DNA from: Devosia sp.
GTDB lineage: Bacteria > Pseudomonadota > Alphaproteobacteria > Rhizobiales > Devosiaceae
Reading direction: 5' to 3'
Assembly: GCA_041939225.1 (NCBI GenBank)
Contig: JBGTUK010000001.1
Coordinates: 1-52,336 of the forward strand
DNA: 52,336 bases
Shown: positions 3,950-40,906 of the stretch, in pieces
How positions within the stretch are numbered: the first letter of the stretch is position 1
Layout: every line of letters starts with the position of its first letter
Made by a program: the position numbers and the translations under genes
The notes under the pieces: generated by a model
What the model was told of the DNA's origin: nothing
What the model saw: only the letters and a program-made list of their open reading frames with translations
The model's database searches: none

Positions 3950-3966
3950 CCCAGCGATCCATCAGA

Positions 3967-4000
3967 GGCGCCTCCCGGGCATTCCCAGTCGGGAGGCGCC
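3967..4000 (+). terminator. GC-rich hairpin after the SBP gene (mRNA-stabilising element or attenuator)
   Basis: GGCGCCTCCCG ... CGGGAGGCGCC, 11-bp perfect stem; no U-tract. Confidence 0.5.
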
Positions 4001-4021
4001 ACCAGTTTCGGGGACCAGCTT

Positions 4022-4858: not shown

Positions 4859-4892
4859 CCTCTTGATCGACTGTCCCAATCGGAGCCACGCC

Positions 4893-19090: not shown

Positions 19091-19303
19091 GACGTATCAT
19101 CCTCATTTATTCCTCAGCCTGTCGAAGGGCGAGGTCACAGCCGTCTGGGCTTTCGACCGCGCACGCACAGCGACGGGCGCACCATGCGGTCTTGGCGTGT
19201 TCAGTGTCCACCATCATGCCTCAGGCATATCGCCCATGCCCAACTTTGTGCTGGCACTCACCGCACACCGGGTTATGCTTGGCCAACACAGTAGAGACTG
19301 CCC

Positions 19304-20200: not shown

Positions 20201-20298
20201 TCGCTTCAGGTTGCCGCCTCGTACGCCAAGGGTCCCCGGCAACCGGTCCACAAAATCTGCAGTCGTGGCGCGACTGCCGGCCTTGACGGACAACAGCT

Positions 20299-22008: not shown

Positions 22009-22011
22009 CCC

Positions 22012-22659
22012 ATGGCCATTACCCTTTACGACTTCGAGCTCTCCGGCAATTGCTACAAGCTGCGCCTGCTGATGAGCATTTTGGGCCTTCCTTATGACAT
22101 CGTGCCAGTGGATTTCTTCCCCGGCCGCGAGCACAAGGCAGATTGGTTCCTTCGGCTCAACCCATTCGGGCAGTTGCCTGTGCTGAAGGACGACGATCTT
22201 GTGCTTTCGGACTCCGGTGCCATTCTCGCTTACCTGGCAAGGAAGTATGACGCCTCCGGCCAATGGTTTCCGAACGATCCCGCCGTCATTGCCGAAATTC
22301 TGCGCTGGCATGCCGTTGCCGACGACATTACCTCGACCAGTTCAGCAGCTCGTTTGGCACTGGGTTATGACTATGATTTCGATATCGAGAAGTGCCAGAA
22401 GGGCGCGCATCGCATTTTCCGGCTGATCGACGAGCATCTCTGGTTCGGTGAAAAATCCGGCCGCGACTGGCTCTGCTCGCCAGCCCATCCGACCACGGCA
22501 GACATCGCCTGTTTCCCCTATGTGATGCTGAGTGAAGAAGGCGGCATATCCCGCCAGGATTACCCCGCGCTGCGGCGCTGGACCGACCGGGTGCGCCGCA
22601 TTCCCGGCTTCACCGTCATGTCCGGTATTTTCCCCGCCGGCCCGGCGAAGGTGGATTGA
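22012..22659 (+). CDS. ndmE: Glutathione S-transferase-like protein, NdmE-like structural subunit
   Basis: SGNCYKLRL, LNPFGQLPVL, DSGAILAYLA and TADIACFPYV; starts 3 bp after the ndmD-like stop. Confidence 0.7.
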   Translation: MAITLYDFELSGNCYKLRLLMSILGLPYDIVPVDFFPGREHKADWFLRLNPFGQLPVLKDDDLVLSDSGAILAYLARKYDASGQWFPNDPAVIAEILRWHAVADDITSTSSAARLALGYDYDFDIEKCQKGAHRIFRLIDEHLWFGEKSGRDWLCSPAHPTTADIACFPYVMLSEEGGISRQDYPALRRWTDRVRRIPGFTVMSGIFPAGPAKVD

Positions 22660-23989: not shown

Positions 23990-25093
23990 TTATGACCCTC
24001 GATGATCACCTGAACCGCCCCTCCCCCTATCAGGGGGATGTTGGGTGGGGGTACCCTCCTCCGACCGGTAATGGTGCTCCCCACCCTGCCAGTCCCGCAC
24101 GGTAAAGCACCCGTCTGCCCCTGTAATCGAAGCCGCGCCGATATCCGTCTTGCCATACCCACCCGGAATATCGAGCACATAGACCGGCTGGCACAGCCCC
24201 GAAATCCGCCCGCGCAACGCCTGCACCAGACGCTGTCCTTCCTCGATCCCGACACGGAAATGCCCCGTACCGGGCGCTAGATCCGGGTGATGCAGGTAAT
24301 AGGGCCGGATACGGTTTTCGACGAAACCGCGCATCAACGCCGCCAAGGTCTCGACGTCATCATTGACGCCCTTGAGCAGCACGCTCTGGCTGATTAGTGC
24401 GATGCCACCGGCCAGCATCAGATCAAAACCAGCTTTCGCCGCATCGGTCAGTTCGCGCGGGTGATTGGCATGCACGGCGAGATAGGTTGTCTTGCCGCTC
24501 GCGGTCAGCGCGGCCACCATCGCCTCGTTGATCCGCTCCGGCTCAACCACCGGCACCCGCGTATGAAAGCGGACAACTTTGACGTGCTCGATACCCGCCA
24601 GCCGCTCCATCAGGTCACGCAACCGGCGGGGCGACAGCACCAGCGGATCACCACCGGTCAGGATCACCTCCCAGATTTCGCTATGTGCTGCGATATAGCC
24701 GATGGCCGCATCCAGCTCTGCCGAATTCAGCGTCCCCAGCCCTTGTGGCCCGACCATTTCCCGCCGAAAGCAGAACCGGCAATAGACGGGGCACACATGC
24801 ACCGCCTTGAGCAAGACCCGGTCGGGATAACGATGCACGATCCCGTCCACCGGCGAGTGGGTCAGATCGCCGATCGGATCAGCCCGCTCTTCTGGCGTCG
24901 TGTTCAATTCATCGGCCGTAGGCACGAATTGCCGCGCAATCGGGTCGTCGGGATCACCTCGATCAATCAGGTCCAGCACTGCCGGCGTAATGCCAATAGC
25001 GTATCTTTCGGCGACCTTATCGAGCGCGGCGTTCGGCGCAACAAGCCCATCGGCCTGCAAATCCGCAACGGATTTGAGCGATGAGACCTTCAT
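23990..25093 (-). CDS. epmB: EF-P beta-lysylation protein EpmB (lysine 2,3-aminomutase-like radical SAM)
   Basis: HRYPDRVLL, CPVYCRFCFRR, ILTGGDPL, QSVLLKGVND and PYYLHHPD; ATGA overlap with the epmA stop. Confidence 0.9.
   Translation of the reverse strand: MKVSSLKSVADLQADGLVAPNAALDKVAERYAIGITPAVLDLIDRGDPDDPIARQFVPTADELNTTPEERADPIGDLTHSPVDGIVHRYPDRVLLKAVHVCPVYCRFCFRREMVGPQGLGTLNSAELDAAIGYIAAHSEIWEVILTGGDPLVLSPRRLRDLMERLAGIEHVKVVRFHTRVPVVEPERINEAMVAALTASGKTTYLAVHANHPRELTDAAKAGFDLMLAGGIALISQSVLLKGVNDDVETLAALMRGFVENRIRPYYLHHPDLAPGTGHFRVGIEEGQRLVQALRGRISGLCQPVYVLDIPGGYGKTDIGAASITGADGCFTVRDWQGGEHHYRSEEGTPTQHPPDRGRGGSGDHRGS
24018..24053 (+). repeat. Small palindromic (REP-like) repeat, copy 2, inside the 3' end of epmB
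   Basis: CCCCTCCCCCTATCAGGGGGATGTTGGGTGGGGGTA; matches copy 1. Confidence 0.75.
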
Positions 25094-26139
25094 TCCCCCA
25101 CCGGCGCCCACAGCACCGCCTCGATCCGCTGCGCACCGGTGGCCAGCATCACCAACCGGTCGAACCCGAGAGCAACCCCACTGGCCTCGGGCATGAAATC
25201 AAGCGCGGCTAGAAAATCTTCGTCAATTGGATAGCGTTCCCCATAAAGGCGCTGCTTTTCTGCCATTTCCGCCTCGAACCGCACGCGCTGCTCGGCAGCG
25301 TTTGTCAATTCGCCAAAGCCATTGGCCAGTTCGACGCCGGCTGCATAAACCTCGAAACGTTCCGAAACCCGTCCATCCCCCGGCACGCGCCGCGCCAGCG
25401 CCGCTTCACAGGCAGGATAGCGATCCAGCACAGTCACGCGCCCATTGCCCAGTTCCGGCTCGACTTTCTCCACCAGCACATGCGTAAACAGATAGCTCCA
25501 GCGTCTTTCCTCGGGCAGCGCCATGCCTGCTCGCACCAATTGCTCGGCCAGCGCCGCATCATCGGGTTCGCCGTCGTCATCCATGGTCGCCAACAGGTCG
25601 ATGCCCGCAAAGCGCTCGAAAGCCTCGGCCACGCTGATCCGCTCTGCTTCGGCAAGCGGATCGCAAAGCCGGTCGCGAAAAGTGAACCGCGCAATTCCCG
25701 TCACCTCTGCCGCCAGCCGGATCATGGCCAGCGTATCGGCGATAATAGCCTCATAGGGGGCGCCCGCCCGATACCATTCGAGCATGGTGAATTCGGGATG
25801 GTGCAGAGCGCTGCGCTCGCGATTGCGCCAGACATGCTGCAGGCTCGCAATCCGGCTCTCCCCGGCGGCCAGCAGCTTCTTCATGGTGAATTCGGGCGAG
25901 GTATGCAGGTACATGCCCTGCCCCACCCCGTCATTGCCGATCATCTGCGTACCAAAGGCGTGCAGATGCGCTTCATTGCCAGGCGAGCGCTGCAGACCTG
26001 GCGGATCGACAATCAGGAAGTCCCGCTCGGCCAGCCAGCCACGCAGGCGGGCCTCGATCCGCGCCCGCGCCAGCAGCGCCGGCCGCCGGTCAGCATGGCG
26101 GTCGGGATGCCACCAGGGCGATGTCTGGGATGCCGTCAT
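25090..26139 (-). CDS. epmA: EF-P lysine aminoacylase EpmA (GenX/PoxA)
   Basis: [43 protein letters not shown] and [10 protein letters not shown]; LysRS catalytic domain without an anticodon domain. Confidence 0.95.
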
Positions 26140-26270
26140 TGATGGGTTTCTTGCCGTCCGGTCTGGCGAAAGGGCGCGGAATACTGTATCGGGCGCACCA
26201 CATAGACATATTCCGGCGCCCGGATGGCCCTGCCTCTAGCCCGCGCCAACGATACGAACAAGGAAGAAAT

Positions 26271-26840
26271 ATGGTCAAGGTCATCGCCTCGTCGCTACGC
26301 AAAGGCAATGTCGTCGAACAGGACGGCAATTTGCATGTCGTGCTAACGGCGGAAAACGTCCACCCCGGCAAGGGTAATTCGATCACCAACGTCAACATGC
26401 GCCGCATCACTGACGGCGTGAAGGTCGTTGGCCGCTGGCGTACGGTCGAAATGGTCGAAAAGGCCGACGTGGACGACCGCGAGTACGACTATCTTTATTC
26501 CGATGGCGAGGGCCACCATTTCATGGAGCCTCAGACCTATGAGCAGATCACCGTCTCCGACGACGTGATCGGCGACCAGAAGGCCTATCTCACCGATGGC
26601 ATGAAGGTGCATCTGATGACCCATGAGGGCATCGCGCTGTCCATGGAGCTGCCACAGCGCCTGACGTTTGAAATTGTGGAGACCGAGCCGGTGGTGAAGG
26701 GCCAGACCGCCTCTTCTTCCTACAAGCCTGCGGTTCTCAACAACGGTCTGCGCGTCATGGTCCCGCCCCATATCGGCACCGGCACCCGCATTGTCATCCT
26801 CACCGAAGACAATTCCTACGTCGAACGCGCCAAGGACTGA
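26271..26840 (+). CDS. efp: Elongation factor P
   Basis: RBS AGGAAG before ATG 26271; loop HPGKG with the modifiable Lys; [12 protein letters not shown]...[10 protein letters not shown]...YVERA. Confidence 0.97.
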
Positions 26841-29341: not shown

Positions 29342-30292
29342 CTACCGCCCAACCGTTTCGCGATAATGCCTAAGGACTTTTCCGGCATCGACGCCTGTGC
29401 AGACGGTCTGAACTGGCCGATTTGCCCAATCCGGATGCCCACCCTTGCGAGATTCAGGCATCTGAATAGTCTGGCCAACCGCCACCCCGTCACGCACCAC
29501 GAGAACCGGCCCCCGGCGGGTTTCGAACCATTCCGGATGAAGGGCATAGGTTACTGCCAACAGATCGTGCCCGACCACGCCGGAAAGTCCCATCATTTCC
29601 TTGTAAAAGCGGGCATAGTGCTCGCACATCTGGGCCAGGAGGGCGCCATTCTCGCCCACCTCGCGTGACAAGGTCTCAAGATAGGCGGTGTCCAGAATGA
29701 TGTCGTGGGTCACATCGAGCCCCACCACCACAACGGGCCAGTCCGCCGCAAAAATCTCGTCGGCGGCGACTGGATCGCCATGAATATTGGCTTCCGCCGC
29801 CGGCGTGATATTGCCGCTCCGACCCTGATAGCCAAATGCGCCGCCCATGATGACCACCTGCTTGGCCAGCTTGGCCACCTCAGGCTCGGCGCGCAGCGCC
29901 AGGGCCAGATTGGTCATGCGACCGACTGCGATGATGCTGATTTCGCCCGGATGGGCTTTGAGCATATCGATGATGAACTGGCTGGCGTCACCGGGCGCCA
30001 ACCCGTCTTCGTCCACCGGCGGAATTTCAATCTCGCCCAGCCCGTTGACGCCATGAACGATCACCGGCTCGGCCTTCTCGACCCCATCCAGCGTCTTGCC
30101 AGCCCCCTGCACCACCGGCGCAGACAACCCGAACCGCTCCTTGAGAAACAGGGCGTTACGTGTGGTTGTGGCCAGGTCGGCATTGCCAACCACAGTTGTG
30201 ATGCCCAGCAGGTCGATCTCCGGCAGCTTGCTCAGGTAAAGCAGCGCCATGGCATCGTCGATGCCGGGATCGGTATCAAAAATAACTTTCAT
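29342..30292 (-). CDS. Nucleoside hydrolase (IU-NH family)
   Basis: DTDPGIDD Ca-binding motif; HGVNGLG; AEANIHGDPVAA; GLDVT; HDLLA. Confidence 0.92.
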   Translation of the reverse strand: MKVIFDTDPGIDDAMALLYLSKLPEIDLLGITTVVGNADLATTTRNALFLKERFGLSAPVVQGAGKTLDGVEKAEPVIVHGVNGLGEIEIPPVDEDGLAPGDASQFIIDMLKAHPGEISIIAVGRMTNLALALRAEPEVAKLAKQVVIMGGAFGYQGRSGNITPAAEANIHGDPVAADEIFAADWPVVVVGLDVTHDIILDTAYLETLSREVGENGALLAQMCEHYARFYKEMMGLSGVVGHDLLAVTYALHPEWFETRRGPVLVVRDGVAVGQTIQMPESRKGGHPDWANRPVQTVCTGVDAGKVLRHYRETVGR

Positions 30293-30411
30293 CGTCTCGT
30301 TCGCTTTCGTGCCGGCCCCTTTGGATCCGGAATCCGGGATAGGCTATATCCCTTGTTATTCTTATGTATCGACCGTGCTCTAACATGAAGCGGGTTGACT
30401 ATCGATAGTTT

Positions 30412-30427
30412 TTGACCAAACGATCAA
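30412..30427. promoter_or_regulatory. RutR-like operator in the nucleoside hydrolase / fgd divergent region
   Basis: TTGACCAAACGATCAA flanked by T/A tracts; resembles the RutR box TTGACCAnnTGGTCAA; a TTGACT -35-like hexamer lies at 30395. Confidence 0.65.
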
Positions 30428-30458
30428 AAATCGATTGTCGCAGGTGGGAGGGACGACC

Positions 30459-31460
30459 ATGCGTTTCGGGTACAAGGCTTCAGCCGAACAGTTCGGACCC
30501 AACGATCTGCTCCGTTTTTCGATAGAGGCCGAGCAGGCAGGTTTTGACTCCGTCTTCGTCTCCGACCATTTCCAGCCCTGGAAACACACCGACGGGCACG
30601 CCCCCTTTGCGCCGGGCTGGATGTCCGCCGTGCTGGCCCGTACCGAAAAAATCACGCTTGGCACCTCCGTCCTCACCCCAACCTTTCGTCTGCATCCCAG
30701 CGTGGTAGCCCATGCCTTTGGCACTATGGGCGCCATGTTTCCTGGCCGCGTCATCCTTGGCGTCGGCACTGGCGAAGGGCTCAACGAGGTGCCCGCCACC
30801 GGAATGGCGTGGCCCGAACTCAAGGAGCGCTCGGCCCGGCTGCGCGAGGCGGTCAGGCTGATCCGCCAGCTCTGGTCAGAGGACCGGGTGAGCTTCGAGG
30901 GCGAATACTACAAGACCGTCAATGCCACAATTTATGACAAGCCGGCTGAGCCGGTGCCGATCTATATCGCCGCCGGCGGCCCGCTCAACGCCAAATATGC
31001 CGGCCTCGCCGGCGACGGCTTCATCTGCACCTCGGGCAAAGGCGCCGAACTCTATGTCGATCAGCTCCTGCCCAATGTGGCTGCCGGCCGGGCCGACAGC
31101 TCCCTCAAGGACAAGCCATTCGAGCGCATGATCGAGGTCAAGGTCTCGTTCGACACCGACGCCCAACGCGCCCTTGAGGACACCCGCAACTGGGCCGCCT
31201 TGTCGCTCTCCGCCGAAGAAAAGCATTCGGTCAAGGATTCAGAAGAGATGGAACGGCTGGCCGACGCGCTCCCCATCGAACGTGTCGCCAAGCGCTGGAT
31301 CGTTTCCTCCGACCCCGATGAGCACGTCGCGCAGATAAAGACCTATATCGACTACGGCTTCGACCATCTGGTGTTCCACGCCCCCGGCACCGACCAGAGC
31401 CGCTTCCTTGGGCTCTATGCGAAAGAGATTCTGCCAAGGCTTCGAAAGTTGGTCGGATGA
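30459..31460 (+). CDS. fgd: F420-dependent glucose-6-phosphate dehydrogenase
   Basis: [66 protein letters not shown] and HLVFHAPG, all characteristic of mycobacterial Fgd. Confidence 0.92.
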
Positions 31461-32269
31461 CCCCACGCCTATCTGTCTGGGGCATCACCGGCATCCCCGA
31501 AATCTCCCCTAACGATAACCTCGTTGCGCTGATCGCCGAGGCGATCACGACACAGTCCAACGCCGACCCGGATTTGGCACTGCAATCGGGCGATATCCTC
31601 GTCGTCACCTCAAAGATCGTCTCCAAGGCTGAAGGCATGCAGGTGCCCGCGGCCGAACGCGAACAGGCCATCGCTGCCGACACGGTCCGGGTGGTGGCCG
31701 AACGCGTGCATCCCGGCGGCACCTTCCGCATTGTCGAGACTCGCCAGGGCCTGGTCATGGCCGCCGCTGGCATCGACATGTCCAATGTTCCCGAAGGCAC
31801 CGCCCTGCGCCTCCCCGCCGACCCGGACGCGTCCGCCCGTCGGCTCTGCGAGGGTTTGCGCGACAAGGTCGGACTGGAGATCGGCGTCGTGGTGACGGAC
31901 ACCATTGGCCGCGCCTGGCGTATTGGCCAGACCGACATGGCCATCGGCGCCGCCGGTGTGCAACTGACGGACGATCTGCGCGGTGCCAATGATGCCAATG
32001 GCCGGCCGTTGCATGTCACCCAGGCGGTCATTGTCGACGAGATCGCCGGCGCCGCCGATCTGGTCAAGGGCAAGACGACCGGAATACCCGTTGCCGTGGT
32101 GCGCGGGCTGGGCCGCTACGTTACCGATCTCGACTCGCCCGGCGCCCGTACCCTGAGCCGCACGGGTGATGACGACATGTTCCGCTTCGGGTCCGCCGAA
32201 GCCTATCGCCTTGGCTATGAAGCAGCCATGGCGGAAATGAACTCACGCAAAAAGCAGAAGCAGGACTGA
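31457..32269 (+). CDS. cofE: Coenzyme F420-0:L-glutamate ligase (stand-alone CofE)
   Basis: [16 protein letters not shown]; AAAGIDMSN; LPADPDASA; [12 protein letters not shown]; [13 protein letters not shown]. No C-terminal nitroreductase domain. ATGA overlap with fgd. Confidence 0.92.
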
Positions 32270-32271
32270 CC

Positions 32272-33210
32272 ATGCGTCACCTCGGCCGTCTTTCGTTCAT
32301 CTTGCCCCTCCTGGCCCTCCCCGCCCAGGCTAACGCCTATCCCGTGATCGTGGACAATTGCGGCCATACAATCACCTTTGACCAAGCGCCCGAACGGGTC
32401 GTCACCATCAAGTCAACGGCAACCGAAATGCTGCTTGCGCTTGGCCTTGGCGACCACATTGTCGGCGTCGGCTTCCAGGATGCCCCCCTGCCGCCGCATC
32501 TGGCCCTGGCCGGCGCGGGCCTACCAGTCCTCTCCGACAAATTGCCCAGCCAGGAAGTCGTGCTCGAGGTCGAACCCGACCTCATCTATGGCGGCTGGGA
32601 AAGCAATTTCGCCGCGGATGGCGCCGGTGAGCGCTCGACACTCGCAACGTTTGGCGTCGCCACCTATGTCGCCCCTGCCGCCTGTCGTTCGATCAAACCG
32701 GCCAAGCTGACATTCGACCATCTCTTTGACCAAATCGACGAATTGGGCACCATTTTCGAGGTAGGCGATGCGGCCGCTCGCCTCGTCGCCGATCAGCAGG
32801 CGCTCCTCAAAGCCATCACACCAGACACACGCGAACTGACCGCATTGTGGTATTCTTCCGGCACCAAGACCCCCTATGTGGGCGCTGGCAGCAACGCTCC
32901 GGCCATGATCATGGAGGCCCTTGGCCTGCAGAACATCTACGCCGAAATCGATGAAGGCTGGACCTCGGCTTCCTGGGAAGCCATCGTCGACGCCAATCCC
33001 GATGTTATCATTCTGGTCGACGCCGCCTGGAATTCAGCCGAGCAGAAGCGGACACTGCTGGCCGAAAATCCAATCACCAGCCAGCTCGACGCGGTCATCA
33101 ACCAGCGTTACCTGATCATTCCGTTTCCAGCCTCCGAGGCTGGAATCCGCAACGTCCCCGCGACCGTTGATATGGCCGCGCAACTGGCCAAGCTGACCTT
33201 TGGGGAATGA
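32272..33210 (+). CDS. Type III (iron-siderophore/cobalamin class) ABC substrate-binding protein, putative F420-0 binding protein
   Basis: YPVIVDNCGHTITFDQAPERVVTIKSTATEMLLALGL; GWESNF; starts 2 bp after cofE. Context matches the proposed F420-0 importer family (TIGR03868, from recall). Confidence 0.75.
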   Translation: MRHLGRLSFILPLLALPAQANAYPVIVDNCGHTITFDQAPERVVTIKSTATEMLLALGLGDHIVGVGFQDAPLPPHLALAGAGLPVLSDKLPSQEVVLEVEPDLIYGGWESNFAADGAGERSTLATFGVATYVAPAACRSIKPAKLTFDHLFDQIDELGTIFEVGDAAARLVADQQALLKAITPDTRELTALWYSSGTKTPYVGAGSNAPAMIMEALGLQNIYAEIDEGWTSASWEAIVDANPDVIILVDAAWNSAEQKRTLLAENPITSQLDAVINQRYLIIPFPASEAGIRNVPATVDMAAQLAKLTFGE

Positions 33211-34217
33211 CGATCACGCATCGTCTCTCCCTGCCGGCCCTTACCGTCCTCCTTGTCGTCAGCGCTATCGCTGCGGTCACCTTCGGGCCGGCAGATATCA
33301 CCCCTGGGGAAGTCTGGTCGGTCATCGCACACCATCTCGGTCTTCTCCCAGAAAGTCCGGTTTCGCGACTGCGCGATGCGATCGTCTGGGAACTGCGCTT
33401 ACCGCGCGTGTTGACCGCTCTCGGGGTCGGCGCCGGCCTGGCGGTCTCCGGCGCCGTGATGCAGGCGTTGACCCGAAATCCGCTCGCCGATCCCTATCTC
33501 CTGGGCCTGTCCTCCGGCGCAGCACTGGGGGCCGTGCTTTTCCTGTTGCTAGGCTTCACCCTCCTTATGCCGCTCGGCGCCTTTCTCGGCAGTCTGGGCG
33601 CGCTGGCGCTTGCCCTGCTCATCGCCCAACTCCTGGGAGGCGCCACCCCAAGCCGGGCCATCCTCGCCGGTATCAGCATCGCAGCCCTGGCCTCAGCCGC
33701 CACCTCCTTTCTTATCTTCTGGTCGGCGACAGGCGATAGCTATCGCGAAATCCTGAGCTGGTTGATGGGCACGCTCTCGGGCTCGACATGGTCGGATGCG
33801 GCCCTGGTCCATCTTGCGCTGGTCGCGTGTCTGCCGATCATCCTGGTCAGTGGCCGGGCGCTCGATGCCTTTGCTTTTGGTGACACCGCCGCCGCCAGCC
33901 TGGGGATAGACGTGCCTCGCCTGCGCTGGACCTTGCTGGGGGCGACGGCGCTGCTGACCGGCATCATGGTGGCAATTGGCGGCGCCATTGGCTTTGTCGG
34001 TTTGGTTGTGCCGCATGCCGTGCGCTTGGCGGTCGGCTCGGCGCATCGCAAACTGCTGCCCCATGCAATGCTGGCCGGCGCCATCTTCATGCTCTGGACC
34101 GACACGGCCGCGCGTACCCTGTTCGATCCGCGCGAATTGCCCGTCGGCATTATCACGGCCCTGATCGGCGCACCGGTTTTCCTGGCCATTCTCCTGCGCT
34201 ACCGGAGGATCACATGA
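33207..34217 (+). CDS. FecCD/BtuC-type ABC permease, putative F420-0 importer
   Basis: LRLPRVL, RNPLADPYLLGLSSGA, GAIGFVGLVVPH and ELPVGIITALIGAP; ATGA overlap. Confidence 0.85.
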   Translation: MTITHRLSLPALTVLLVVSAIAAVTFGPADITPGEVWSVIAHHLGLLPESPVSRLRDAIVWELRLPRVLTALGVGAGLAVSGAVMQALTRNPLADPYLLGLSSGAALGAVLFLLLGFTLLMPLGAFLGSLGALALALLIAQLLGGATPSRAILAGISIAALASAATSFLIFWSATGDSYREILSWLMGTLSGSTWSDAALVHLALVACLPIILVSGRALDAFAFGDTAAASLGIDVPRLRWTLLGATALLTGIMVAIGGAIGFVGLVVPHAVRLAVGSAHRKLLPHAMLAGAIFMLWTDTAARTLFDPRELPVGIITALIGAPVFLAILLRYRRIT

Positions 34218-35017
34218 CCCTCTCGGTTGCCGGGCTGTCGGTCGCAAAATCCGGCACGCCAATCCTGACTGATGTGAGCTTCTCGGCTCCGGCAGGCCGC
34301 ATTACCGGGCTGATCGGGCCCAACGGCGCCGGCAAATCCACCCTATTAGCCGCCCTGCTCGGCCTCTTGCAGGGTGAGGGCACCGTTCGCTTCGAGGGCC
34401 ACGACCTGCCCAACATGCGCCGGCGCGATCGGGCACAGCTCCTGGCCATCGTCGAACAGTCCGCTGCCACCGAGGAGCGCCTGAGCGTGCGCGATGTCGT
34501 GGCTCTGGGCCGCATCCCCTACGAGGCGGCATGGCAATCCGAACCCAGTCCATGCGATCAGGCCATCATCGCCCAAGCGTTGGCGGACACCGGCACCACA
34601 GGTTTTGCCGCCAGACGGTTCACCACCCTGTCCGGCGGCGAACAACAGCGCGTGCATGTTGCGCGAGCGCTAGCCCAGCAGCCGCACCTGCTGCTACTCG
34701 ACGAGCCGACCAGCCACCTCGACATTCGTGCCCAGCTTCAGCTTCTCGCACTGCTTCGGCAAAAAGCCGCTGCGGGAATGAGCATATTAGTGGTCCTGCA
34801 TGATCTCAATCTGGCGGCCCGCTTCTGCGACCACCTGGTCGTGCTGGCAAATGGCCGAACGGCTGCCGAGGGGGCACCTACCGATATCCTGACCCCCGAA
34901 CTGCTGCGTACGGTCTATGGCGTCGCCGCCAGGCTGGTCCCCGACAGCGCCAAGGGCCATCCCTTGATCGTCCTTGACGAAGCGATCGCGGAAGACCACT
35001 GGCAATTAACCGATTGA
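34214..35017 (+). CDS. FepC/BtuD-type ABC ATP-binding protein, putative F420-0 importer
   Basis: GPNGAGKST; LSGGEQQRV; LLLDEPTSHLD; LHDLNLA; ATGA overlap. Confidence 0.88.
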   Translation: MTLSVAGLSVAKSGTPILTDVSFSAPAGRITGLIGPNGAGKSTLLAALLGLLQGEGTVRFEGHDLPNMRRRDRAQLLAIVEQSAATEERLSVRDVVALGRIPYEAAWQSEPSPCDQAIIAQALADTGTTGFAARRFTTLSGGEQQRVHVARALAQQPHLLLLDEPTSHLDIRAQLQLLALLRQKAAAGMSILVVLHDLNLAARFCDHLVVLANGRTAAEGAPTDILTPELLRTVYGVAARLVPDSAKGHPLIVLDEAIAEDHWQLTD

Positions 35018-35063
35018 CAATCGTGCCTCAGCCACTCAAAAATTTGATCGACTGGTCAAATTT
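35014..35063 (+). promoter_or_regulatory. Sigma70-type promoter with an adjacent RutR-like operator upstream of the LLM gene
   Basis: TTGACA at 35014. AAATTTGATCGACTGGTCAAATTT at 35040-35063; its core reverse-complements to TTGACCAGTCGATCAA, same arms as the site at 30412. Confidence 0.7.
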
Positions 35064-35092: not shown

Positions 35093-36094
35093 ATGGAATT
35101 CGGCATCACCTTCAAGGGCTTTATCGAGCATGAGCGGGCCCGCTATCTGGTTCGCGCCGCCGAATATGCCGGCTTCTCTTATTGTTGGTTCTATGACAGC
35201 CACATTCTCTGGCGCGATTGCTACGCCGCCATTGCTATGTGCATGGAACACACCACCGACATGCGTTTCGGTCCGCTGGTCACCAATCCCGATGTGCGCG
35301 ACTGGTCGGTTGCCGCCTCGATCTTCGGCTCGCTTTCCAAGCAATCCGGCGGTCGCTTCGATCTCGCCGTGGGCCGTGGCGACTCATCCATGCGCGTCAT
35401 GGGTAAAAAGCCTGCAACCCTCAAGCGCGTCGCCGAATTCATCGACAAGACTAAAGCCATGGTGCGCGGCGAGGAAGTCACCTATGGCGAAATTCCCGCG
35501 GCGGTGAAATTTCCCTGGGCAGTCGGCCACGACATGCCGAGCTGGATCGCCGCCTACGGCCCGCTGGCCCTGAAAACCGCGGGCCAGCACGCCGAGGGTG
35601 TCGTGTTGCAGATTGCCGATCCGGGGCTTTGCAAATGGTTCACCGACCAATGCATCGATGCTGGCAAGGAAGCCGGCAAGGACATGTCCGGCTTCCGCTC
35701 CATGGCTGCCGCGCCGGCCTATTTCGGCGACAAGAAACGCGCCATTGAACATGTGAAATGGTTCCCGGCCATGGTTGGCAACCATGTCGCAGACATTGTC
35801 GAGAAGTACGGCGCCGATAGCGACAAGGTGCCATCAAGCCTGACCAGCTATATCGAAAAGCGCCGTGGCTACGACTACTCCAAGCATGGCCAGGCCGATA
35901 ATCCCTATCTCGATTTCATCACCGACGATGTGGTGGAAAGCTTCTGCGTGCTCGGCGAACCTGAGGATCACATCAAGAAGTTGCACGAGCTGGAGGCGGC
36001 GGGTGTCACCCAGTTCAACATCTATCTCGACAGTGGCGATGAGGAAGAGATCATCGCTAATTACGGAAGGCACGTCATTCCCGCCTTCCGCTGA
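35093..36094 (+). CDS. Luciferase-like (LLM) Mer-related, putative F420-dependent oxidoreductase (CPS_4043/TIGR03842-like family)
   Basis: WFYDSHILW, GPLVTNP.VRDWSVAAS, GRGDSS, AAYGPLAL, WFPAMVGNHVADIV, GYDYSKHG and GVTQFNIYL match this family from recall. Confidence 0.8.
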   Translation: MEFGITFKGFIEHERARYLVRAAEYAGFSYCWFYDSHILWRDCYAAIAMCMEHTTDMRFGPLVTNPDVRDWSVAASIFGSLSKQSGGRFDLAVGRGDSSMRVMGKKPATLKRVAEFIDKTKAMVRGEEVTYGEIPAAVKFPWAVGHDMPSWIAAYGPLALKTAGQHAEGVVLQIADPGLCKWFTDQCIDAGKEAGKDMSGFRSMAAAPAYFGDKKRAIEHVKWFPAMVGNHVADIVEKYGADSDKVPSSLTSYIEKRRGYDYSKHGQADNPYLDFITDDVVESFCVLGEPEDHIKKLHELEAAGVTQFNIYLDSGDEEEIIANYGRHVIPAFR

Positions 36095-36099
36095 AGTCT

Positions 36100-36135
36100 A
36101 AAAGGGCGCGCCGCACGGTGCGCCCTTTTTGTTTT
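36100..36135 (+). terminator. Intrinsic terminator
   Basis: AAAAGGGCGCGCCG-ca-CGGTGCGCCCTTTTTGTTTT directly after the LLM stop. Confidence 0.8.
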
Positions 36136-36273: not shown

Positions 36274-37260
36274 ATGGGAACTCTCAATCGCCGCACTCTG
36301 ATCGCGGCACTCGGGCTGACCACCGCGCTCAGCCTCACCGGCGCCTCCTTGGCGCAGGACACGCCCAAGGTTGCTGCTATCTGGACCGTACCGGTCGAAC
36401 AGCAATGGGCAAGCCGCCTGCATAATGCGCTGGTCGCCGCCGAAGAGGCCGGCGAGATCGACTATGTCTACTCGGAAAACATCACCAATACCGACTATGA
36501 GCGCGTCATGCGCGAATATGCCGAACAGGGCATCGCCCTGATGGTCGGCGAGGCTTTCGGTGTCGAGCAGCCTGCCCGTACCGTGGCCGCAGACTATCCC
36601 GAAATCAGCTTCCTCATGGGGTCGTCCCTGCCGCCGGTCGAACCGAACTTCGCCACCTTCGACAATTTCATCCACGAGCCCAGCTATCTCACCGGCATCA
36701 TCGCCGGCATGAAGACCGAAACCGACCAGATCGGCATGGTGGGCGGGTATGCCATTCCTGAAGTGAACCGGCTGATGCACGCCTTCATGGCCGGCGCGCT
36801 CTCCGTCAATCCGGACGTGACTTTCTCAGTCAGCTTCATCAACTCCTGGTATGATCCGCCCAAGGCCAAGGAAACCGCCTTTGCCATGGTCGATGCTGGC
36901 GCCGACATCCTCTACGCCGAACGCTTCGGGGTGTCCGACGCCGCCAAGGAGCGTGGCATCTTCGCTATCGGCAATGTCATCGACACCGCCGCCGACTATC
37001 CAGGCACCATTCTCGCCTCTGCCCTCTGGCATGGCGAACCGATGATCAATCAAGCTATCGCCGATGTGAAGGCGGGCACCTTCGAGGCCAAGGACTACGG
37101 CGTCTATGCCTTCATGGAATATGGCGGCTCGTCCATGGTGGTCGATGAGGAACTGGCCGGCTCCGAAGCTGTGGAAGCGGCAAAGGCCGTCGAAGCCTCC
37201 ATTCTCGATGGCTCATTCGTGGTCGAAATCAACGACAGTGAACCGACCTCGACGCAGTAA
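36274..37260 (+). CDS. BMP family ABC substrate-binding protein (nucleoside/nucleobase)
   Basis: N-terminal NRRTL signal (possibly Tat-like); IHEPSYLTGIIAG; GMVGGYAIPEV; FINSWYDPPKAKE; GADILY. Confidence 0.88.
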   Translation: MGTLNRRTLIAALGLTTALSLTGASLAQDTPKVAAIWTVPVEQQWASRLHNALVAAEEAGEIDYVYSENITNTDYERVMREYAEQGIALMVGEAFGVEQPARTVAADYPEISFLMGSSLPPVEPNFATFDNFIHEPSYLTGIIAGMKTETDQIGMVGGYAIPEVNRLMHAFMAGALSVNPDVTFSVSFINSWYDPPKAKETAFAMVDAGADILYAERFGVSDAAKERGIFAIGNVIDTAADYPGTILASALWHGEPMINQAIADVKAGTFEAKDYGVYAFMEYGGSSMVVDEELAGSEAVEAAKAVEASILDGSFVVEINDSEPTSTQ

Positions 37261-37263
37261 GTG

Positions 37264-37299
37264 CCCCCTCACCGAGCCTCCCCCTCAAACAGGGGGAGG
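37264..37299 (-). repeat. Small palindromic (REP-like) repeat, copy 3, inverted
   Basis: CCCCCTCACCGAGCCTCCCCCTCAAACAGGGGGAGG: same CCTCCCCCT/AGGGGGAGG stem with the tail on the opposite side. Confidence 0.6.
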
Positions 37300-37325
37300 A
37301 TAGGAGGTAAACGAAGCAGGACACC

Positions 37326-38873
37326 ATGACCAAACCCAATCTCCTGCTCTCGCTAACCAACATCACCAAGCGGTTCGGCGCCCTTGTCGCTAACGACCAC
37401 ATTTCTTTCGACCTTCGCGAGGGCGAAATCCTTGCCCTCTTGGGAGAGAACGGCGCCGGCAAGACCACGCTGATGAACATCCTGTTCGGCCATTATGTGC
37501 AGGACGAGGGCACGGTCCGCGTTCGGACCAATGGCGGGGATATGGCAACCTTGCCGCCCGGCTCGCCGGGCGCGGCCCTGTCGGTCGGTGTTGGCATGGT
37601 GCACCAGCATTTCACTCTGGCCGAAAATCTCTCGGGCCTCGACAATATTCGCCTTGGCACCGAGGCGCTGCTCTCCTTGGGGCGACGCACCCCCGCGCGC
37701 GCCAGGATTGAGACCATCATTGCCGAGAGCGGGTTGGAGGTCGATATCGACCGTCGCGTCGCCGACCTCACGGTGGGCGAGAAGCAGCGCATTGAAATCC
37801 TCAAGGCACTCTATCGCGATGCCCGCGTCCTCATTCTGGATGAACCCACTGCCGTTCTGACACCCCAGGAAGCCGAGGGGCTGTTTGTGGTGTTGCGGCG
37901 GCTGGCGGCCAATGGCCTTGGGGTCATCTTTATTTCGCACAAGCTGGGCGAGGTGCTGGCCGTCTCGCACCGCATCATGGTGCTGCGTGCGGGCAGGAAA
38001 GCCGGTGAATTGACCACCGCCGAAGCCGACCGTCGTGCCATTGCCGATCTCATGGTCGGCAAGGCGGTCGCTCAGGTCACCCGCACACCGGGTTACCCCG
38101 GGGACCCTTTGCTTGAGCTGGACCATGTAACCCTGGCCAAGTCGGGCAGCCGCAGCGCCGTAACCGACGCCAGCTTCACCCTGCGCGCCGGAGAAATCAC
38201 TGGTCTGGCGGGAGTTTCCGGCAATGGACAGGCGGGCATCGCGGCCCTGCTCTCCGGCCTGGCAGTGCCCGACACGGGCACTATGCGGCTCTTCGGCGCG
38301 CCGGTGACCCGGGCCGATCCGCGCAGTCTCGTGCAACAGGGCGTCGCCCGCATGCCCGAGGATCGTCAGCACGACGGCGTTGTCGGAACCATGAGTGTTG
38401 CAGATAATATCGCGATCGAGGAAATTCGCTCCCCTGGGTTCTCGCGGCTCGGCCTGCTCGACAACACTGCCATGCGGGCCCGCGCCGAGAGCGCCATTGC
38501 GGCCTATGATGTGCGTTGTCCTGGACCGGACGCCGAGGCGCGGCTGCTCTCGGGCGGCAATGTGCAAAAGCTCATTATCGCTCGTGTGCTCGAACGCGAA
38601 CCGCGTATCATTCTGGCCAACCAGCCCACGCGCGGACTCGATATCGGCGCCCAGGCCGAAGTGCATCGCCGTATTATTGCTGCGCGCGATCGGGGCGCCG
38701 CGGTCCTGGTGATTTCCGAAGATCTCGACGAACTCTTCGCCCTGGCTGACCGGTTCCTCGTAATCCATGCAGGAGAGGTGGCCGAGGCCGGTCCGGCCGA
38801 TACACTCGACCGCGCCACCATCGGTCTGATGATGGCCGGACAGTCCCGCACCACGGAGCCCCTTGCCCAATGA
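37326..38873 (+). CDS. Nucleoside ABC transporter ATP-binding protein (two ABC domains, NupA/YufO-like)
   Basis: GENGAGKTTL, GMVHQHF, LILDEPTAVLTPQE, AGVSGNGQ, LSGGNVQK and QPTRGLD. Confidence 0.92.
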   Translation: MTKPNLLLSLTNITKRFGALVANDHISFDLREGEILALLGENGAGKTTLMNILFGHYVQDEGTVRVRTNGGDMATLPPGSPGAALSVGVGMVHQHFTLAENLSGLDNIRLGTEALLSLGRRTPARARIETIIAESGLEVDIDRRVADLTVGEKQRIEILKALYRDARVLILDEPTAVLTPQEAEGLFVVLRRLAANGLGVIFISHKLGEVLAVSHRIMVLRAGRKAGELTTAEADRRAIADLMVGKAVAQVTRTPGYPGDPLLELDHVTLAKSGSRSAVTDASFTLRAGEITGLAGVSGNGQAGIAALLSGLAVPDTGTMRLFGAPVTRADPRSLVQQGVARMPEDRQHDGVVGTMSVADNIAIEEIRSPGFSRLGLLDNTAMRARAESAIAAYDVRCPGPDAEARLLSGGNVQKLIIARVLEREPRIILANQPTRGLDIGAQAEVHRRIIAARDRGAAVLVISEDLDELFALADRFLVIHAGEVAEAGPADTLDRATIGLMMAGQSRTTEPLAQ

Positions 38874-39940
38874 GCCTCCGCCTCGACCCCCGCGAACATG
38901 CCCCCTTGCCGTTGAGCCTGCTCGTCTCTCTGCTCGCCGGTCTCGTCGCCCTGCTGCTGGTGGCCATTCCAGTCATGGCAGCGGGCGCCAACCCGTTCGA
39001 GGCCTATGTGCTCATGGCGCAGGGGGCATTCGGTTCAATGTTCGCCCTGTCCGAAACCCTTAATCGTGCCACCCCTCTCATCCTTACCGGCCTCGCCGCC
39101 GCCGTGGCCTTTCGCGCCAGGCTCTGGAACATCGGTGCCGAGGGTCAGCTCTACATGGGTGCCCTTGCAGCCGTGCTGGTTGGTTCGGGATTTCTACAGC
39201 TTCCGGGCCCGCTCGCCATCCCCGCCATCATGCTGGCCGGCTTCCTTGCAGGTGGCTTGATGATGGTGGTTCCGGCCATGCTCAAGCAACGCTTCGGCGC
39301 CGATGAGGTGGTCATCACTCTGCTGCTCAATTTTGTGGTCATCCTCTTCATCCAGATGCTGATCGAAGGCCCGCTCAAGGACCCGCTGGCCATGGGCTGG
39401 CCGCAATCGGTTCCGCTCGTCGCGGAGGCCAGGTTCGACAAGCTGATCCCGCGACTGCGCATGCATTGGGGGCTGGTCATTGGCCTTGTGGCCGCGCTCA
39501 TCCTCTGGCTCATGGTCAAGCGCACCGTGCTCGGCTTCGAAATCAAGGCGGTCGGTGAGAACAAGGCTGCGGCCCGCTTTGCCGGCATTCCGGTCGACGC
39601 CACCATGCTCAAGGTTGCCCTGATTTCGGGCGGCTTGGCGGGTCTGGCCGGCGTTGGCGAGGTGGCCGGAGTGAAAGGTTATCTCTCGGCCGATCTCTCG
39701 CCCGGGTTCGGCTATTCTGGCATTGTCGTAGCCATGCTCGCCGGCCTTTCGCCCATCGGCAGTGTCCTGGCGGCCATCTTTATTGCCGCCGTGTTCGTGG
39801 GCGCGGACTCGATGAGCCGGGCCACCGGCATTTCCAACTATCTCGCCGATCTGGTCGTGGCCCTGTCCCTGCTCTGTGTATTGGTCGGCAGCTTCTTCCT
39901 GCGCTTCCGGATGCAATGGCAATCTCGGCAGGAGCTCTGA
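38870..39940 (+). CDS. Nucleoside ABC transporter permease (NupB-like)
   Basis: ATPLILTGLA, WNIGAEGQLYMG, EVVITLLLN and GYSGIVVAML; ATGA overlap. Confidence 0.9.
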   Translation: MSLRLDPREHAPLPLSLLVSLLAGLVALLLVAIPVMAAGANPFEAYVLMAQGAFGSMFALSETLNRATPLILTGLAAAVAFRARLWNIGAEGQLYMGALAAVLVGSGFLQLPGPLAIPAIMLAGFLAGGLMMVVPAMLKQRFGADEVVITLLLNFVVILFIQMLIEGPLKDPLAMGWPQSVPLVAEARFDKLIPRLRMHWGLVIGLVAALILWLMVKRTVLGFEIKAVGENKAAARFAGIPVDATMLKVALISGGLAGLAGVGEVAGVKGYLSADLSPGFGYSGIVVAMLAGLSPIGSVLAAIFIAAVFVGADSMSRATGISNYLADLVVALSLLCVLVGSFFLRFRMQWQSRQEL

Positions 39941-39944
39941 GCCA

Positions 39945-40892
39945 ATGGATACCCTTCTTGATATCTTCAGCTCCGCCAATTTCTGGGCCGCCGCCATTCG
40001 CATCGCCACCCCGCTGATTTTTGGCGTGCTGGGCGCCCTGATCTGCGAACGCGCCGGTGTGCTCAATCTTGGTATCGAAGGCATCTTCGTGGCCGGGGCC
40101 ATGGCCGGCTGGCTCGCCGTCTATCTTGGTGCGGGTCTCTGGGGCGGCGTGCTGATCGCCGCGCTAGCGGGCGCCATCTTCGGCTTGTTGCATGCCATTC
40201 TCACGGTCATTCTGGGCCTCTCCCAACATGTCTCGGGCATCGGCATTACCCTGCTGGCGACCAGCGCCAGCTATTTCACCTACCGCACCACATTGCCCGA
40301 CGTCTCTTCCCCGCCGCGCATTGCACCATTCCAGCCCATCGCCGTCCCCGGCCTGTCCGACTTGCCCTTTATCGGCCCGGCTCTGTTCCAGCAAACCCTG
40401 TTCACCTGGCTGGCCCTGGCCCTAGTGGCACTCGTCGCCTTCGTGCTCTATCGCACGCCGCTGGGGCTCGCTATCCGCGCGGTTGGTGACAACCCGGCCT
40501 CGGTCGAAGCACAGGGGCTTTCGGTCCGCGGCCTGCGGATCGGCGCGGTGGTGATCGGTTCGGCCCTCATGGCGCTGGGCGGCGCCTTTCTCACCATGTC
40601 GGCCTTTGACGCCTTCTTCTTCGGCATGGTCAATGGCCGTGGCTGGATCTGCATCGCCCTGGTGGTCTTTGCCTCGTGGCAACCCGGCAAGGCGCTGCTT
40701 GGCGCTCTGCTGTTTGGTGCCTTTGACGCCTTCCAGATCCGTCTTCAGGCCGAGATCGGCCAAGTCGTGCCCGGCCAGGTCTTCCTGATGATGCCCTATC
40801 TGCTTTCTATCCTGGCCCTGGTGTTGGTCGCGCGCAAAGCCGACTATCCAAGAGCCCTGCTTCAGCCCTGGACCAAGGGGCAGCGCCACTAA
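39945..40892 (+). CDS. Nucleoside ABC transporter permease (NupC-like)
   Basis: ATPLIFGVLG, ERAGVLNLGIEG, GRGWICIALV and PYLLSIL. Confidence 0.9.
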   Translation: MDTLLDIFSSANFWAAAIRIATPLIFGVLGALICERAGVLNLGIEGIFVAGAMAGWLAVYLGAGLWGGVLIAALAGAIFGLLHAILTVILGLSQHVSGIGITLLATSASYFTYRTTLPDVSSPPRIAPFQPIAVPGLSDLPFIGPALFQQTLFTWLALALVALVAFVLYRTPLGLAIRAVGDNPASVEAQGLSVRGLRIGAVVIGSALMALGGAFLTMSAFDAFFFGMVNGRGWICIALVVFASWQPGKALLGALLFGAFDAFQIRLQAEIGQVVPGQVFLMMPYLLSILALVLVARKADYPRALLQPWTKGQRH

Positions 40893-40906
40893 CTGCGGGA
40901 CCATCC

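What the first reader, a model, noticed from the sequence alone, without database searches (positions are those of the whole stretch)
30409..35063. Same asymmetric RutR-like operator in front of the F420 operon and the LLM gene
Seen: TTGACCA-AA-CGATCAA at 30412-30427 and, on the reverse strand, TTGACCA-GT-CGATCAA at 35044-35059. The two sites match at 14 of 16 positions and differ only in the 2-nt spacer. Both have A/T-tract flanks and lie just downstream of TTGAC(T/A) hexamers, a repressor position. Established: the E. coli RutR box is TTGACCAnnTGGTCAA. Inference: cofactor uptake/recharging is wired into the pyrimidine regulon, which is independent evidence for the substrate of the LLM enzyme. 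No regulator gene is in the window.
Basis: partly seen in the sequence, partly recalled or inferred. Interest (0 to 1): 0.8.

Follow-up and report, generated by a model that had tools for sequence, protein, structure and literature searches.

The report
Uracil switch controls borrowed-F420 module
Two conserved DNA sites, likely bound by the uracil-sensing repressor RutR, sit in front of genes predicted to import and recharge coenzyme F420, which Devosia genomes lack the genes to make, and in front of an untested F420-type enzyme that likely does the first step of uracil and thymine breakdown in place of the usual enzyme.

Summary
Observation confirmed; interpretation largely supported. The two sites are the only exact copies in the 2.8-Mb assembly. 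They recur before the LLM gene in 61 of 62 Devosia-type loci and before operon-leading fgd in 44 of 44, but in 0 of 10 where fgd follows the LLM gene. RutR is missing from this 67%-complete assembly but present in 83 of 85 congeners, with DNA- and uracil-contact residues kept and a similar site before its own gene. LLM (TIGR03842), Fgd and importer occur in the same 70 of 85 genomes. The usual uracil reductase subunit PreA is in 13 of the other 15 and in only 2 of the 70; 7 of 7 independent tree pairs agree. preT carries the same kind of site (8 of 8). cofG was found in 0 of 86 and cofD in 0 of 69 genomes, so F420 is likely imported. Best reading: a RutR-controlled, F420H2-dependent uracil/thymine reductase module; nothing is assayed. 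The shared asymmetry is not essential (19 of 44 fgd sites are perfect). The scan proposed the LLM role and the importer before, on other DNA; my two look-ups for the RutR link returned no note holding it.

The parts
29342..30292 (-). Nucleoside hydrolase (Rih-like), divergent from fgd. It may share site 1 but is not a fixed partner.
   Evidence: PF01156 E 1.5e-82; divergent from fgd in only 11 of 40 Devosia-type loci
30395..30400 (+). Predicted -35 hexamer TTGACT of the fgd promoter. A 17-18 nt spacer puts the -10 (AAACGA/AACGAT) inside site 1.
   Evidence: Sequence; all 18 asymmetric fgd sites have TTGAC[T/G] 11 nt upstream, while 24 of the other 26 have TGGACA 3-5 nt upstream. Promoter is inferred.
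30412..30427 (+). Site 1: likely RutR operator of the fgd-cofE-importer operon
   Evidence: 44 of 44 operon-leading fgd loci; 0 of 10 where fgd follows the LLM gene; rank 3
30459..31460 (+). [quoted passage not shown]
   Evidence: TIGR03554 497 bits, cut-off 420; E 4e-141 to solved FGD 5lxe
31457..32269 (+). cofE, F420-0:glutamate ligase (CofE domain only)
   Evidence: TIGR01916 222.7 bits, cut-off 180.65; covers only positions 12-261 of the 449-position FbiB-type model
32272..33210 (+). Putative F420-0 ABC importer, binding protein
   Evidence: TIGR03868 420.4 bits, cut-off 392.4; found in the same 70 of 85 congeners as fgd and the LLM gene
33207..34217 (+). Putative F420-0 ABC importer, permease
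   Evidence: TIGR03869 444.4 bits, cut-off 437.35
34214..35017 (+). Putative F420-0 ABC importer, ATPase
   Evidence: Best hit TIGR03873, 321.9 bits, below its cut-off of 372.4
35014..35043 (+). Predicted sigma-70 promoter of the LLM gene (TTGACA-N18-AAAAAT), abutting site 2
   Evidence: TTGAC[A/T] lies 22-24 nt before the site in 61 of 62 loci. Promoter is inferred.
35044..35059 (-). Site 2: likely RutR operator over the predicted start of LLM transcription
   Evidence: 61 of 62 Devosia-type and 7 of 7 Pelagibacterium-type loci; rank 2
35093..36094 (+). TIGR03842 luciferase-like hydride transferase; predicted F420H2-dependent uracil/thymine reductase
   Evidence: TIGR03842 484.8 bits, cut-off 295.45; closest solved relatives are Mer by sequence (E 5.5e-29) and by fold (ranks 1-8, TM about 0.8, model pLDDT 88)
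36100..36129 (+). Terminator-like hairpin after the LLM gene. The downstream bmp/ABC/codA genes are probably a separate unit.
   Evidence: 13-pair stem with T run (8 terminator-like sites found against 6.0 in shuffles, so weak alone); no site before bmp (0 of 7) or codA (0 of 8)

Best explanation
The two sites are likely RutR (PydR) operators that keep an F420 import-and-recharge operon and a predicted F420H2-dependent uracil/thymine reductase switched off until uracil or thymine is present. Inferred mechanism, step by step: (1) RutR sits on the fgd and LLM promoters and would be released by uracil/thymine, as shown for E. coli RutR. (2) The ABC system would import F420-0 or a longer form made by other microbes, because cofG and cofD were not found in any Devosia genome searched. 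(3) CofE would add the glutamate tail. (4) Fgd would reduce F420 with glucose-6-phosphate. (5) The TIGR03842 enzyme would pass hydride directly from F420H2 to C6 of uracil/thymine, giving the dihydropyrimidine. (6) HydA, PydC, PydD and MmsA, encoded elsewhere beside rutR in congeners, would finish the reductive pathway. The module thus would replace the flavin/iron-sulfur enzyme PreTA. Shown here: the sites, their conservation, gene families, presence/absence patterns and operon layouts. Inferred: binding, induction, import and the substrate.
For: Footprint: site before the LLM gene in 61 of 62 and before operon-leading fgd in 44 of 44 loci, 0 of 10 for internal fgd. Controls: reversed pattern 0; cofE 1 of 55; binding-protein gene 0 of 54. 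Mean modal frequency is 0.97/0.93 in the motif against 0.50/0.41 in distal flanks. Regulator: PF08362 in 83 of 85 congeners, nearly always single copy. K51, L55, Y56, K61, W77, Y97, W167, Q171 and Q179 of E. coli RutR are kept in 19-20 of 20 (roles from PMC2952853 and PMC10891134, passages). A similar site lies between rutR and pydD in 19 of 20 loci. In the 10 LLM-positive genomes inspected, the pyd cluster has pydD, mmsA, pydC, hydA and a transporter but no preTA. Exclusion in Devosia: LLM, fgd and importer are in the same 70 of 85 genomes; full PreA is in 13 of the 15 others and 2 of the 70. On an rpoB tree of 70 genomes this takes 8 changes, and 7 of 7 independent pairs agree, median p 0.016. 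Order sample of 301 genomes: 30 have TIGR03842, 113 have PreA, none has both, and all 143 have hydA. preT carries TTGACCAATTGATAAA in 8 of 8 loci. F420 producers: cofG-cofH-cofD-(cofC)-cofE-fno or fgd-LLM operons are headed by a similar site in 12 loci (L240, L241, L245, L250, L116, L118, L119, L125, L127, L129, L130, and L133 at 3 mismatches). In genus g71 the cof-fno-LLM genes run on directly from pydD-mmsA-pydC-hydA-transporter (L329/L239, L330/L246). L376 has site-LLM-hydA. The fold is Mer-like. This family has precedent for reducing activated C=C bonds (LxmJ; PMC8498797 passages). RutA was found in 0 of 5 genomes.
Against: No binding, expression or enzyme data. RutR, pydC, pydD and mmsA orthologues are not in this assembly; its hydA contig looks chimeric. 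2 of 70 LLM-positive Devosia keep preTA (G009, G031), and so do 2 of 6 LLM-positive genomes from other alphaproteobacterial orders (G444, G586). 51 of 194 hydA-positive genomes of the order have neither enzyme, 11 of them among the strongest hydA matches. No site was found near the LLM operon in g71 (5 loci, plus L329 and L330; their TetR is only 35-38% identical to RutR), g67 (2 loci), L122, L134, L137, L375 or L377-L381. The Devosia RutR tested (from L185) passes NF011584 or TIGR03613 in neither case (220.8 vs 230 and 237.3 vs 368 bits) and has Pro at E. coli T52. RutR regulons include purine genes, and conserved sites also precede a dipeptide-family binding protein. No outer-membrane receptor for F420 is in the cluster.
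Confidence: 0.75

Rival explanations
1. The sites are RutR operators, but the LLM enzyme acts on another nucleobase-derived substrate (a modified pyrimidine, barbiturate-type compound or purine breakdown product), and uracil reduction is done by something else or not at all.
For: RutR regulons include xdh, guaD, pucL and all genes. An F420 luciferase-family reductase has been proposed for yanthine in uric acid breakdown (PMC12507026, passages). Four genomes carry both LLM and PreA. No substrate could be modelled.
Against: It does not explain the near-complete, repeated exclusion with PreA, the universal hydA or the single pyd-cof-fno-LLM gene run in g71.
Confidence: 0.15
2. Another repressor with a similar palindrome (another TetR, or a nitrogen or nucleoside regulator) binds these sites, not RutR.
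For: RutR is absent from this assembly, which has 8 other TetR_N matches. Both sites are 2 mismatches from the consensus. Conserved sites also precede cpdB-like and dppA-like genes.
Against: A similar site sits in front of rutR itself in 19 of 20 loci. A matrix trained only on rutR/pydD and preT sites picks out the window's sites. RutR's DNA-contact residues are conserved. The assembly is 67% complete.
Confidence: 0.06
3. The LLM protein is an FMN-dependent monooxygenase of the RutA kind (oxidative ring opening), or site 1 serves only the divergent nucleoside hydrolase.
For: Same superfamily as RutA (recalled). The hydrolase gene is divergent from site 1 in this window.
Against: The nearest solved folds are F420-dependent Mer, ahead of the luciferases. 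The gene travels with fgd, fno and cof genes. The site stays at fgd in 44 of 44 loci, while the hydrolase is divergent in only 11 of 40.
Confidence: 0.04

Closest known systems
RutR/PydR regulon (E. coli RutR; comparative regulons of Leyn et al. 2016, PMC5343134)
   Same: 16-bp TTGACCAnnTGGTCAA-type site at promoters; an orthologous TetR with conserved DNA and uracil contacts; targets include rutR, pydC, pydB, pydA/X and nucleoside genes.
   Different: The published target table (supplement part 15, read in full) names no F420, fgd, cofE or luciferase-like reductase gene; 'F420' and 'luciferase' occur 0 times in that supplement. Several entries there are unnamed locus tags that I did not identify.
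Dihydropyrimidine dehydrogenase PydA / PreT-PreA and ferredoxin-dependent PydAc (PMC7332683, abstract and passages)
   Same: Predicted to fill the same pathway slot and the same regulatory slot (preT carries a similar site, 8 of 8).
   Different: Known enzymes are FMN/FAD/iron-sulfur proteins using NAD(P)H or ferredoxin. This is a 333-aa single-domain luciferase-like barrel predicted to use F420H2 directly.
[quoted passage not shown]
   Same: Closest solved sequence and fold; direct hydride-transfer family.
   Different: Only 25-28% identity; the gene context is pyrimidine catabolism, not one-carbon metabolism.
Putative F420-0 ABC importer with cofE and fgd (TIGR03868/TIGR03869/TIGR03873)
   Same: Binding protein and permease pass the curated cut-offs; adjacent cofE and fgd; no biosynthesis genes found. 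That the model was proposed from actinobacteria lacking F420 synthesis is recalled from the TIGRFAM note, not from a call.
   Different: Here it is in a Gram-negative genus, under a likely uracil-responsive operator, and co-occurs one-to-one with a single F420-type reductase. The ATPase is below the cut-off.
Proposed F420-dependent yanthine reductase of Chloroflexota (PMC12507026, passages)
   Same: Same idea: a luciferase-family F420 enzyme replacing an NADH- or ferredoxin-dependent ring reductase.
   Different: Purine pathway, predicted only; that paper does not propose it for uracil in the passages seen.

Membership tests
RutR operator / RutR regulon | 16-bp palindrome near TTGACCAnnTGGTCAA at a promoter, conserved across species | tested here: met
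   2 mismatches each; conserved in 61 of 62 and 44 of 44 loci; perfect in 19 of 44 fgd orthologue sites
RutR operator / RutR regulon | RutR orthologue encoded in the same genome | tested here: inconclusive
   Not found in G000, 67% complete; present in 83 of 85 congeners
RutR operator / RutR regulon | Regulator keeps RutR's DNA- and uracil-contact residues | tested here: met
   9 of 10 positions kept in 19-20 of 20 congener proteins; T52 is Pro, a position where Ala or Gly had little effect in E. coli. One protein tested scores just below the NF011584 cut-off.
RutR operator / RutR regulon | A similar site before rutR and known pyd targets | tested here: met
   19 of 20 rutR loci; 8 of 8 preT loci
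RutR operator / RutR regulon | Binding in vitro and release by uracil/thymine | not testable with these tools
   Needs EMSA and expression data
PreT-PreA/PydA dihydropyrimidine dehydrogenase family | Sequence and domains of PreA/PreT (FMN, FAD, Fe-S) | tested here: not met
   The LLM protein hits PF00296/TIGR03842, not NF006183; G000 has no PreA or PreT match. It is predicted to work like the family but is not a member.
F420-dependent LLHT reductase (TIGR03842) | Score above the family cut-off; Mer-like fold | tested here: met
   484.8 vs 295.45 bits; Mer structures rank 1-8
F420-dependent LLHT reductase (TIGR03842) | Linked to an F420 supply and an F420-reducing enzyme | tested here: met
   fgd + importer in the same 70 of 85 Devosia; cof-fno/fgd operons elsewhere. 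No such genes near L137, L376, L379 or L381.
F420-dependent LLHT reductase (TIGR03842) | Binds F420H2 and reduces uracil/thymine | not testable with these tools
   Needs an enzyme assay
F420-0 ABC importer (TIGR03868/03869/03873) | Three-gene cassette above the curated cut-offs | tested here: inconclusive
   Binding protein and permease pass; ATPase 321.9 vs 372.4 bits
F420-0 ABC importer (TIGR03868/03869/03873) | Host lacks F420 biosynthesis but keeps cofE | tested here: met
   cofG 0 of 86, cofD 0 of 69, cofH 0 of 5, cofC 0 of 5 over cut-off with one weak hit
F420-0 ABC importer (TIGR03868/03869/03873) | Transports a deazaflavin | not testable with these tools
   Needs binding and uptake assays
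RutA (FMN-dependent pyrimidine oxygenase) | Match to TIGR03612 | tested here: not met
   No TIGR03612 hit for the LLM protein at E 1e-8; RutA in 0 of 5 congeners

The most novel reading that the evidence does not exclude
Most Devosia species start uracil and thymine breakdown with an undescribed F420H2-dependent reductase and use F420 as a vitamin taken from other microbes. The uracil sensor RutR switches on import, tailing, recharging and the reductase together, and the whole package swaps repeatedly with preTA. In F420-making Alphaproteobacteria, RutR likewise controls the whole F420 biosynthesis operon. This would make pyrimidine catabolism the main reason these bacteria keep F420, and predicts that uracil induces F420 synthesis in strains reported to hold only traces.
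Probability: 0.6. Interest if true: 0.87.

Novelty: new variant of a known kind. Interest (0 to 1): 0.76.

Why it matters
The 2021 F420 review states that no F420-dependent enzyme outside Actinobacteria and archaea had been studied experimentally and that the cofactor's role in Alphaproteobacteria is open (PMC8498797, section 23). This finding names a candidate role, enzyme, substrate, inducer and regulator. It makes three things directly testable in cultured strains: a third chemistry for the first step of reductive pyrimidine breakdown; the long-predicted F420 importer (growth on uracil should need added F420 and the importer); and F420 cross-feeding between microbes. It also suggests why F420 was seen only in traces in Alphaproteobacteria: the operon would be repressed without uracil. 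Not in print as far as I could search. However, Ney 2017, Selengut and Haft 2010 and Yin 2019 were not held, and they could mention the link between F420 genes and pyrimidine genes.

Tried and rejected
RutR in the window's own assembly: not found by family or tblastn; I put this down to 67% completeness, not absence. RNA evidence: no RNA holder listed, so no reads were laid. Single-sequence structure prediction failed (pLDDT 35); the alignment-based model was used. 'Shared asymmetry is the signal': rejected as a requirement, since 19 of 44 fgd sites are perfect and only 18 are of the window's type; it does persist at the LLM gene (51 of 68 TTGATCG-type) for reasons I could not establish. 'Site 1 belongs to the nucleoside hydrolase': rejected (11 of 40). 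'bmp/ABC/codA are in the regulon': no site in 0 of 7 and 0 of 8 loci, and those genes follow the LLM gene in a minority of loci. FNR-type box: rejected, since the spacing is 16 bp and FNR's is 14 (recalled). A high-scoring G000 site beside a P450 gene: not seen in the 100 bp upstream of 3 of 3 orthologues. Fisher tests on genome counts were computed but not relied on, because kin are not independent. Rows left out: 15 of 85 congeners are not on the rpoB tree (13 LLM-positive and the 2 with neither enzyme); 8 of 62 Devosia-type loci had no usable fgd upstream region; cofD was searched only in the 69 genomes at 97% or more complete (G000 included). The grouping of the 80 loci into 62 Devosia-type, 7 Pelagibacterium-type and 11 others was mine, from titles and layout. 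Papers not held: PMC2953692, PMC6816092, PMC5315465. bioRxiv supplements were closed and not seen.


Full report
Observation. They are the only exact matches of TTGACCANNCGATCAA in the window's 2.82-Mb assembly G000. The window is from a Devosia: the nearest named locus, L138 (Devosia subaequoris), is 94% identical over 21 kb. The genes are fgd (30459), cofE, a three-gene putative F420-0 importer, then the TIGR03842 LLM gene (35093), with a nucleoside hydrolase divergent from fgd. No regulator is among 41 window ORFs scanned.

The sites are functional footprints. I scanned 200 bp upstream of each gene in 80 related loci for up to 2 mismatches to TTGACCANNTGGTCAA. A site precedes the LLM gene in 61 of 62 Devosia-type loci (the 62nd has 3 mismatches) and in 7 of 7 Pelagibacterium-type loci. 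It precedes fgd in 44 of 44 loci where fgd leads its operon, and in 0 of 10 where fgd sits directly behind the LLM gene. The reversed pattern scored 0; internal genes scored 1 of 55 (cofE) and 0 of 54 (binding protein). The asymmetry is not required: 19 of 44 fgd sites are perfect. All 18 sites of the window's type have TTGAC[T/G] 11 nt upstream, which would place the -10 element inside the operator, whereas 24 of the other 26 have TGGACA 3-5 nt upstream. I infer that the CGAT half at fgd reflects promoter overlap. At the LLM gene the operator abuts the predicted -10. Both positions suit a repressor; the promoters are inferred, not mapped.

The regulator is likely RutR. It was not found in G000, which is 67% complete and also lacks pydC, pydD and mmsA orthologues. 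It is present in 83 of 85 congeners and matches solved E. coli RutR at E 2e-58. It keeps K51, L55, Y56, K61, W77, Y97, W167, Q171 and Q179 in 19-20 of 20 proteins (residue roles from passages of PMC2952853 and PMC10891134). T52 is Pro, and the one protein scanned falls just below two curated RutR cut-offs. rutR is divergent from pydD-mmsA-pydC-hydA-ABC, with a site such as TTGACCAGTTGGAAAA in 19 of 20 loci. A matrix trained only on those sites and on preT sites ranks the window's two sites 2nd and 3rd in G000, above the best score of any of 20 shuffled matrices. Further sites precede cpdB-like and ushA-like nucleotidases, a gene I recognise as deoD (recalled label) and a family-5 binding protein. 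The published proteobacterial RutR target table names pydA, pydB, pydC, codA, deoD and purine genes but no F420 gene (PMC5343134, passages and supplement part 15).

What the regulated module replaces. The pyd clusters of 10 LLM-positive Devosia have every reductive-pathway gene except preT-preA. Across 85 congeners, the LLM gene, fgd and the importer binding protein occur in exactly the same 70. PreA above its cut-off is in 13 of the other 15; the two without it also lack RutR. It is in only 2 of the 70, plus a contig-end fragment in G067. On an rpoB tree of 70 of these genomes the PreA-only genomes are scattered: 8 changes, and 7 of 7 independent pairs agree, median sign-test p 0.016 (FastTree, single gene, unrooted). 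preT carries TTGACCAATTGATAAA upstream in 8 of 8 loci fetched, so the two alternatives occupy the same regulatory slot. In 301 genomes of the order, 30 have TIGR03842, 113 have PreA, none has both, and all 143 have hydA. Against this: 51 hydA-positive genomes have neither, and 2 of 6 LLM-positive genomes from other orders also have PreA.

F420 supply. cofG was found in 0 of 86, cofD in 0 of 69, cofH in 0 of 5 and cofC in 0 of 5 Devosia genomes; the control genomes rang. With cofE and the importer, this points to uptake of F420-0 or a longer form. The other LLM proteins that could be classified, in the five genomes sampled, fell in FMN-type families; three had no match at the threshold. An FDOR-A gene is in 2 of 5. 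The TIGR03842 protein is therefore the likely main consumer. In other Rhizobiales the same gene ends a cofG-cofH-cofD-(cofC)-cofE-fno or fgd-LLM operon, headed by a similar site in 12 loci. In genus g71 that operon continues directly from pydD-mmsA-pydC-hydA-transporter, but no site was found there and the adjacent TetR is only 35-38% identical to RutR. L376 has site-LLM-hydA; L375 and L377-L381 showed no site.

The enzyme. Its nearest solved relatives by sequence and by predicted fold are F420H2-dependent Mer reductases. Fgd is close to solved FGDs. The family includes reductases of activated C=C bonds and aromatic rings (PMC8498797 passages); PMC6279831 (abstract and passages) separates F420 dehydrogenases from reductases. 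Direct hydride transfer from F420H2 to C6 of uracil is my inference; no ligand was modelled.

Comparison and novelty. The parts are known families; the arrangement is a variant of the reductive pyrimidine pathway with a different first enzyme and an imported cofactor, under the pathway's usual regulator. Known first enzymes use NAD(P)H or ferredoxin through flavins and iron-sulfur clusters (PMC7332683, abstract and passages). An analogous F420 enzyme was proposed for purine breakdown (PMC12507026, passages). Searches (listings and abstract starts) found no paper on an F420 uracil reductase or on RutR with F420; three key papers were not held, and RegPrecise itself was not available. Earlier notes of this scan propose the same LLM role from gene clusters in other phyla and the importer in another Devosia. 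They are unchecked leads and came after my reading was formed.

Verdict. The feature is real. RutR operator about 0.9; LLM as uracil/thymine reductase about 0.8; whole mechanism 0.75. Interest 0.76; new variant of a known kind; untested at the bench.

Noticed in passing
G000 C11:23266 (L002); L385, L391, L400, L402: A RutR-type site precedes a family-5 (dipeptide-type) ABC binding protein in G000 and in 4 of 5 congeners scanned, which hints that this transporter carries a nucleoside- or nucleobase-related cargo.
   Followed up: partly
G000 C122:2244 (L005), C70:5713 (L007); L387, L392, L396: Sites precede cpdB-like and ushA-like periplasmic nucleotidases; the cpdB site is also in 3 of 5 congeners scanned. 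Neither gene is named in the published RutR table read.
   Followed up: partly
G000 C243:1544 (L001): A perfect TTGACCAATTGGTCAA lies between the convergent ends of ybaK and cydB with no gene in front of it; G081 has a one-mismatch version there. Possibly left from a lost gene or serving a small gene or RNA.
   Followed up: partly
G000 C301:2484 (L009): The top-scoring site of the matrix precedes a gene with a signal-peptide-like start, probably a binding protein, that seems to break off in foreign-looking sequence at the contig end.
   Followed up: no
G000 C77:1-3150: The first 3 kb, including hydA, has a different gene order from the sister genome and lower identity (82% against 89% for the next 3.5 kb); likely a chimeric join in the assembly.
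   Followed up: partly
L117 4600-5620, L121 (Pelagibacterium-type loci): Fgd is replaced at the head of the importer operon by a different LLM dehydrogenase (TIGR03557 family, about 33% identical to Fgd), still behind a RutR-type site: a likely F420-reducing enzyme with another electron donor.
   Followed up: partly
G000 C104:6794 (L003): A high-scoring site between a cytochrome P450 and a small divergent ORF; not seen upstream of 3 of 3 P450 orthologues.
   Followed up: yes
G072 C1:3626561 and 3639906: One Devosia genome has a second fgd and a second importer binding protein far from the LLM locus.
   Followed up: no
window 36274-42190: A BMP-family ABC transporter and cytosine deaminase follow the LLM gene; this neighbourhood is seen in only 7 of 58 loci and has no site of its own.
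   Followed up: partly
window 18059-22659: A cluster of Ldh_2 dehydrogenase, a VanA C-terminal-only protein, a Rieske-reductase fusion and a GST; substrate unknown.
   Followed up: no
window 23990-26840: epmB-like, epmA and efp genes side by side: an EF-P beta-lysylation set in an alphaproteobacterium.
   Followed up: no
window 2210-6761: Two family-5 binding proteins and one ATPase without permeases; the ATPase ORF overlaps the second binding-protein gene, possibly a deletion or assembly join.
   Followed up: no
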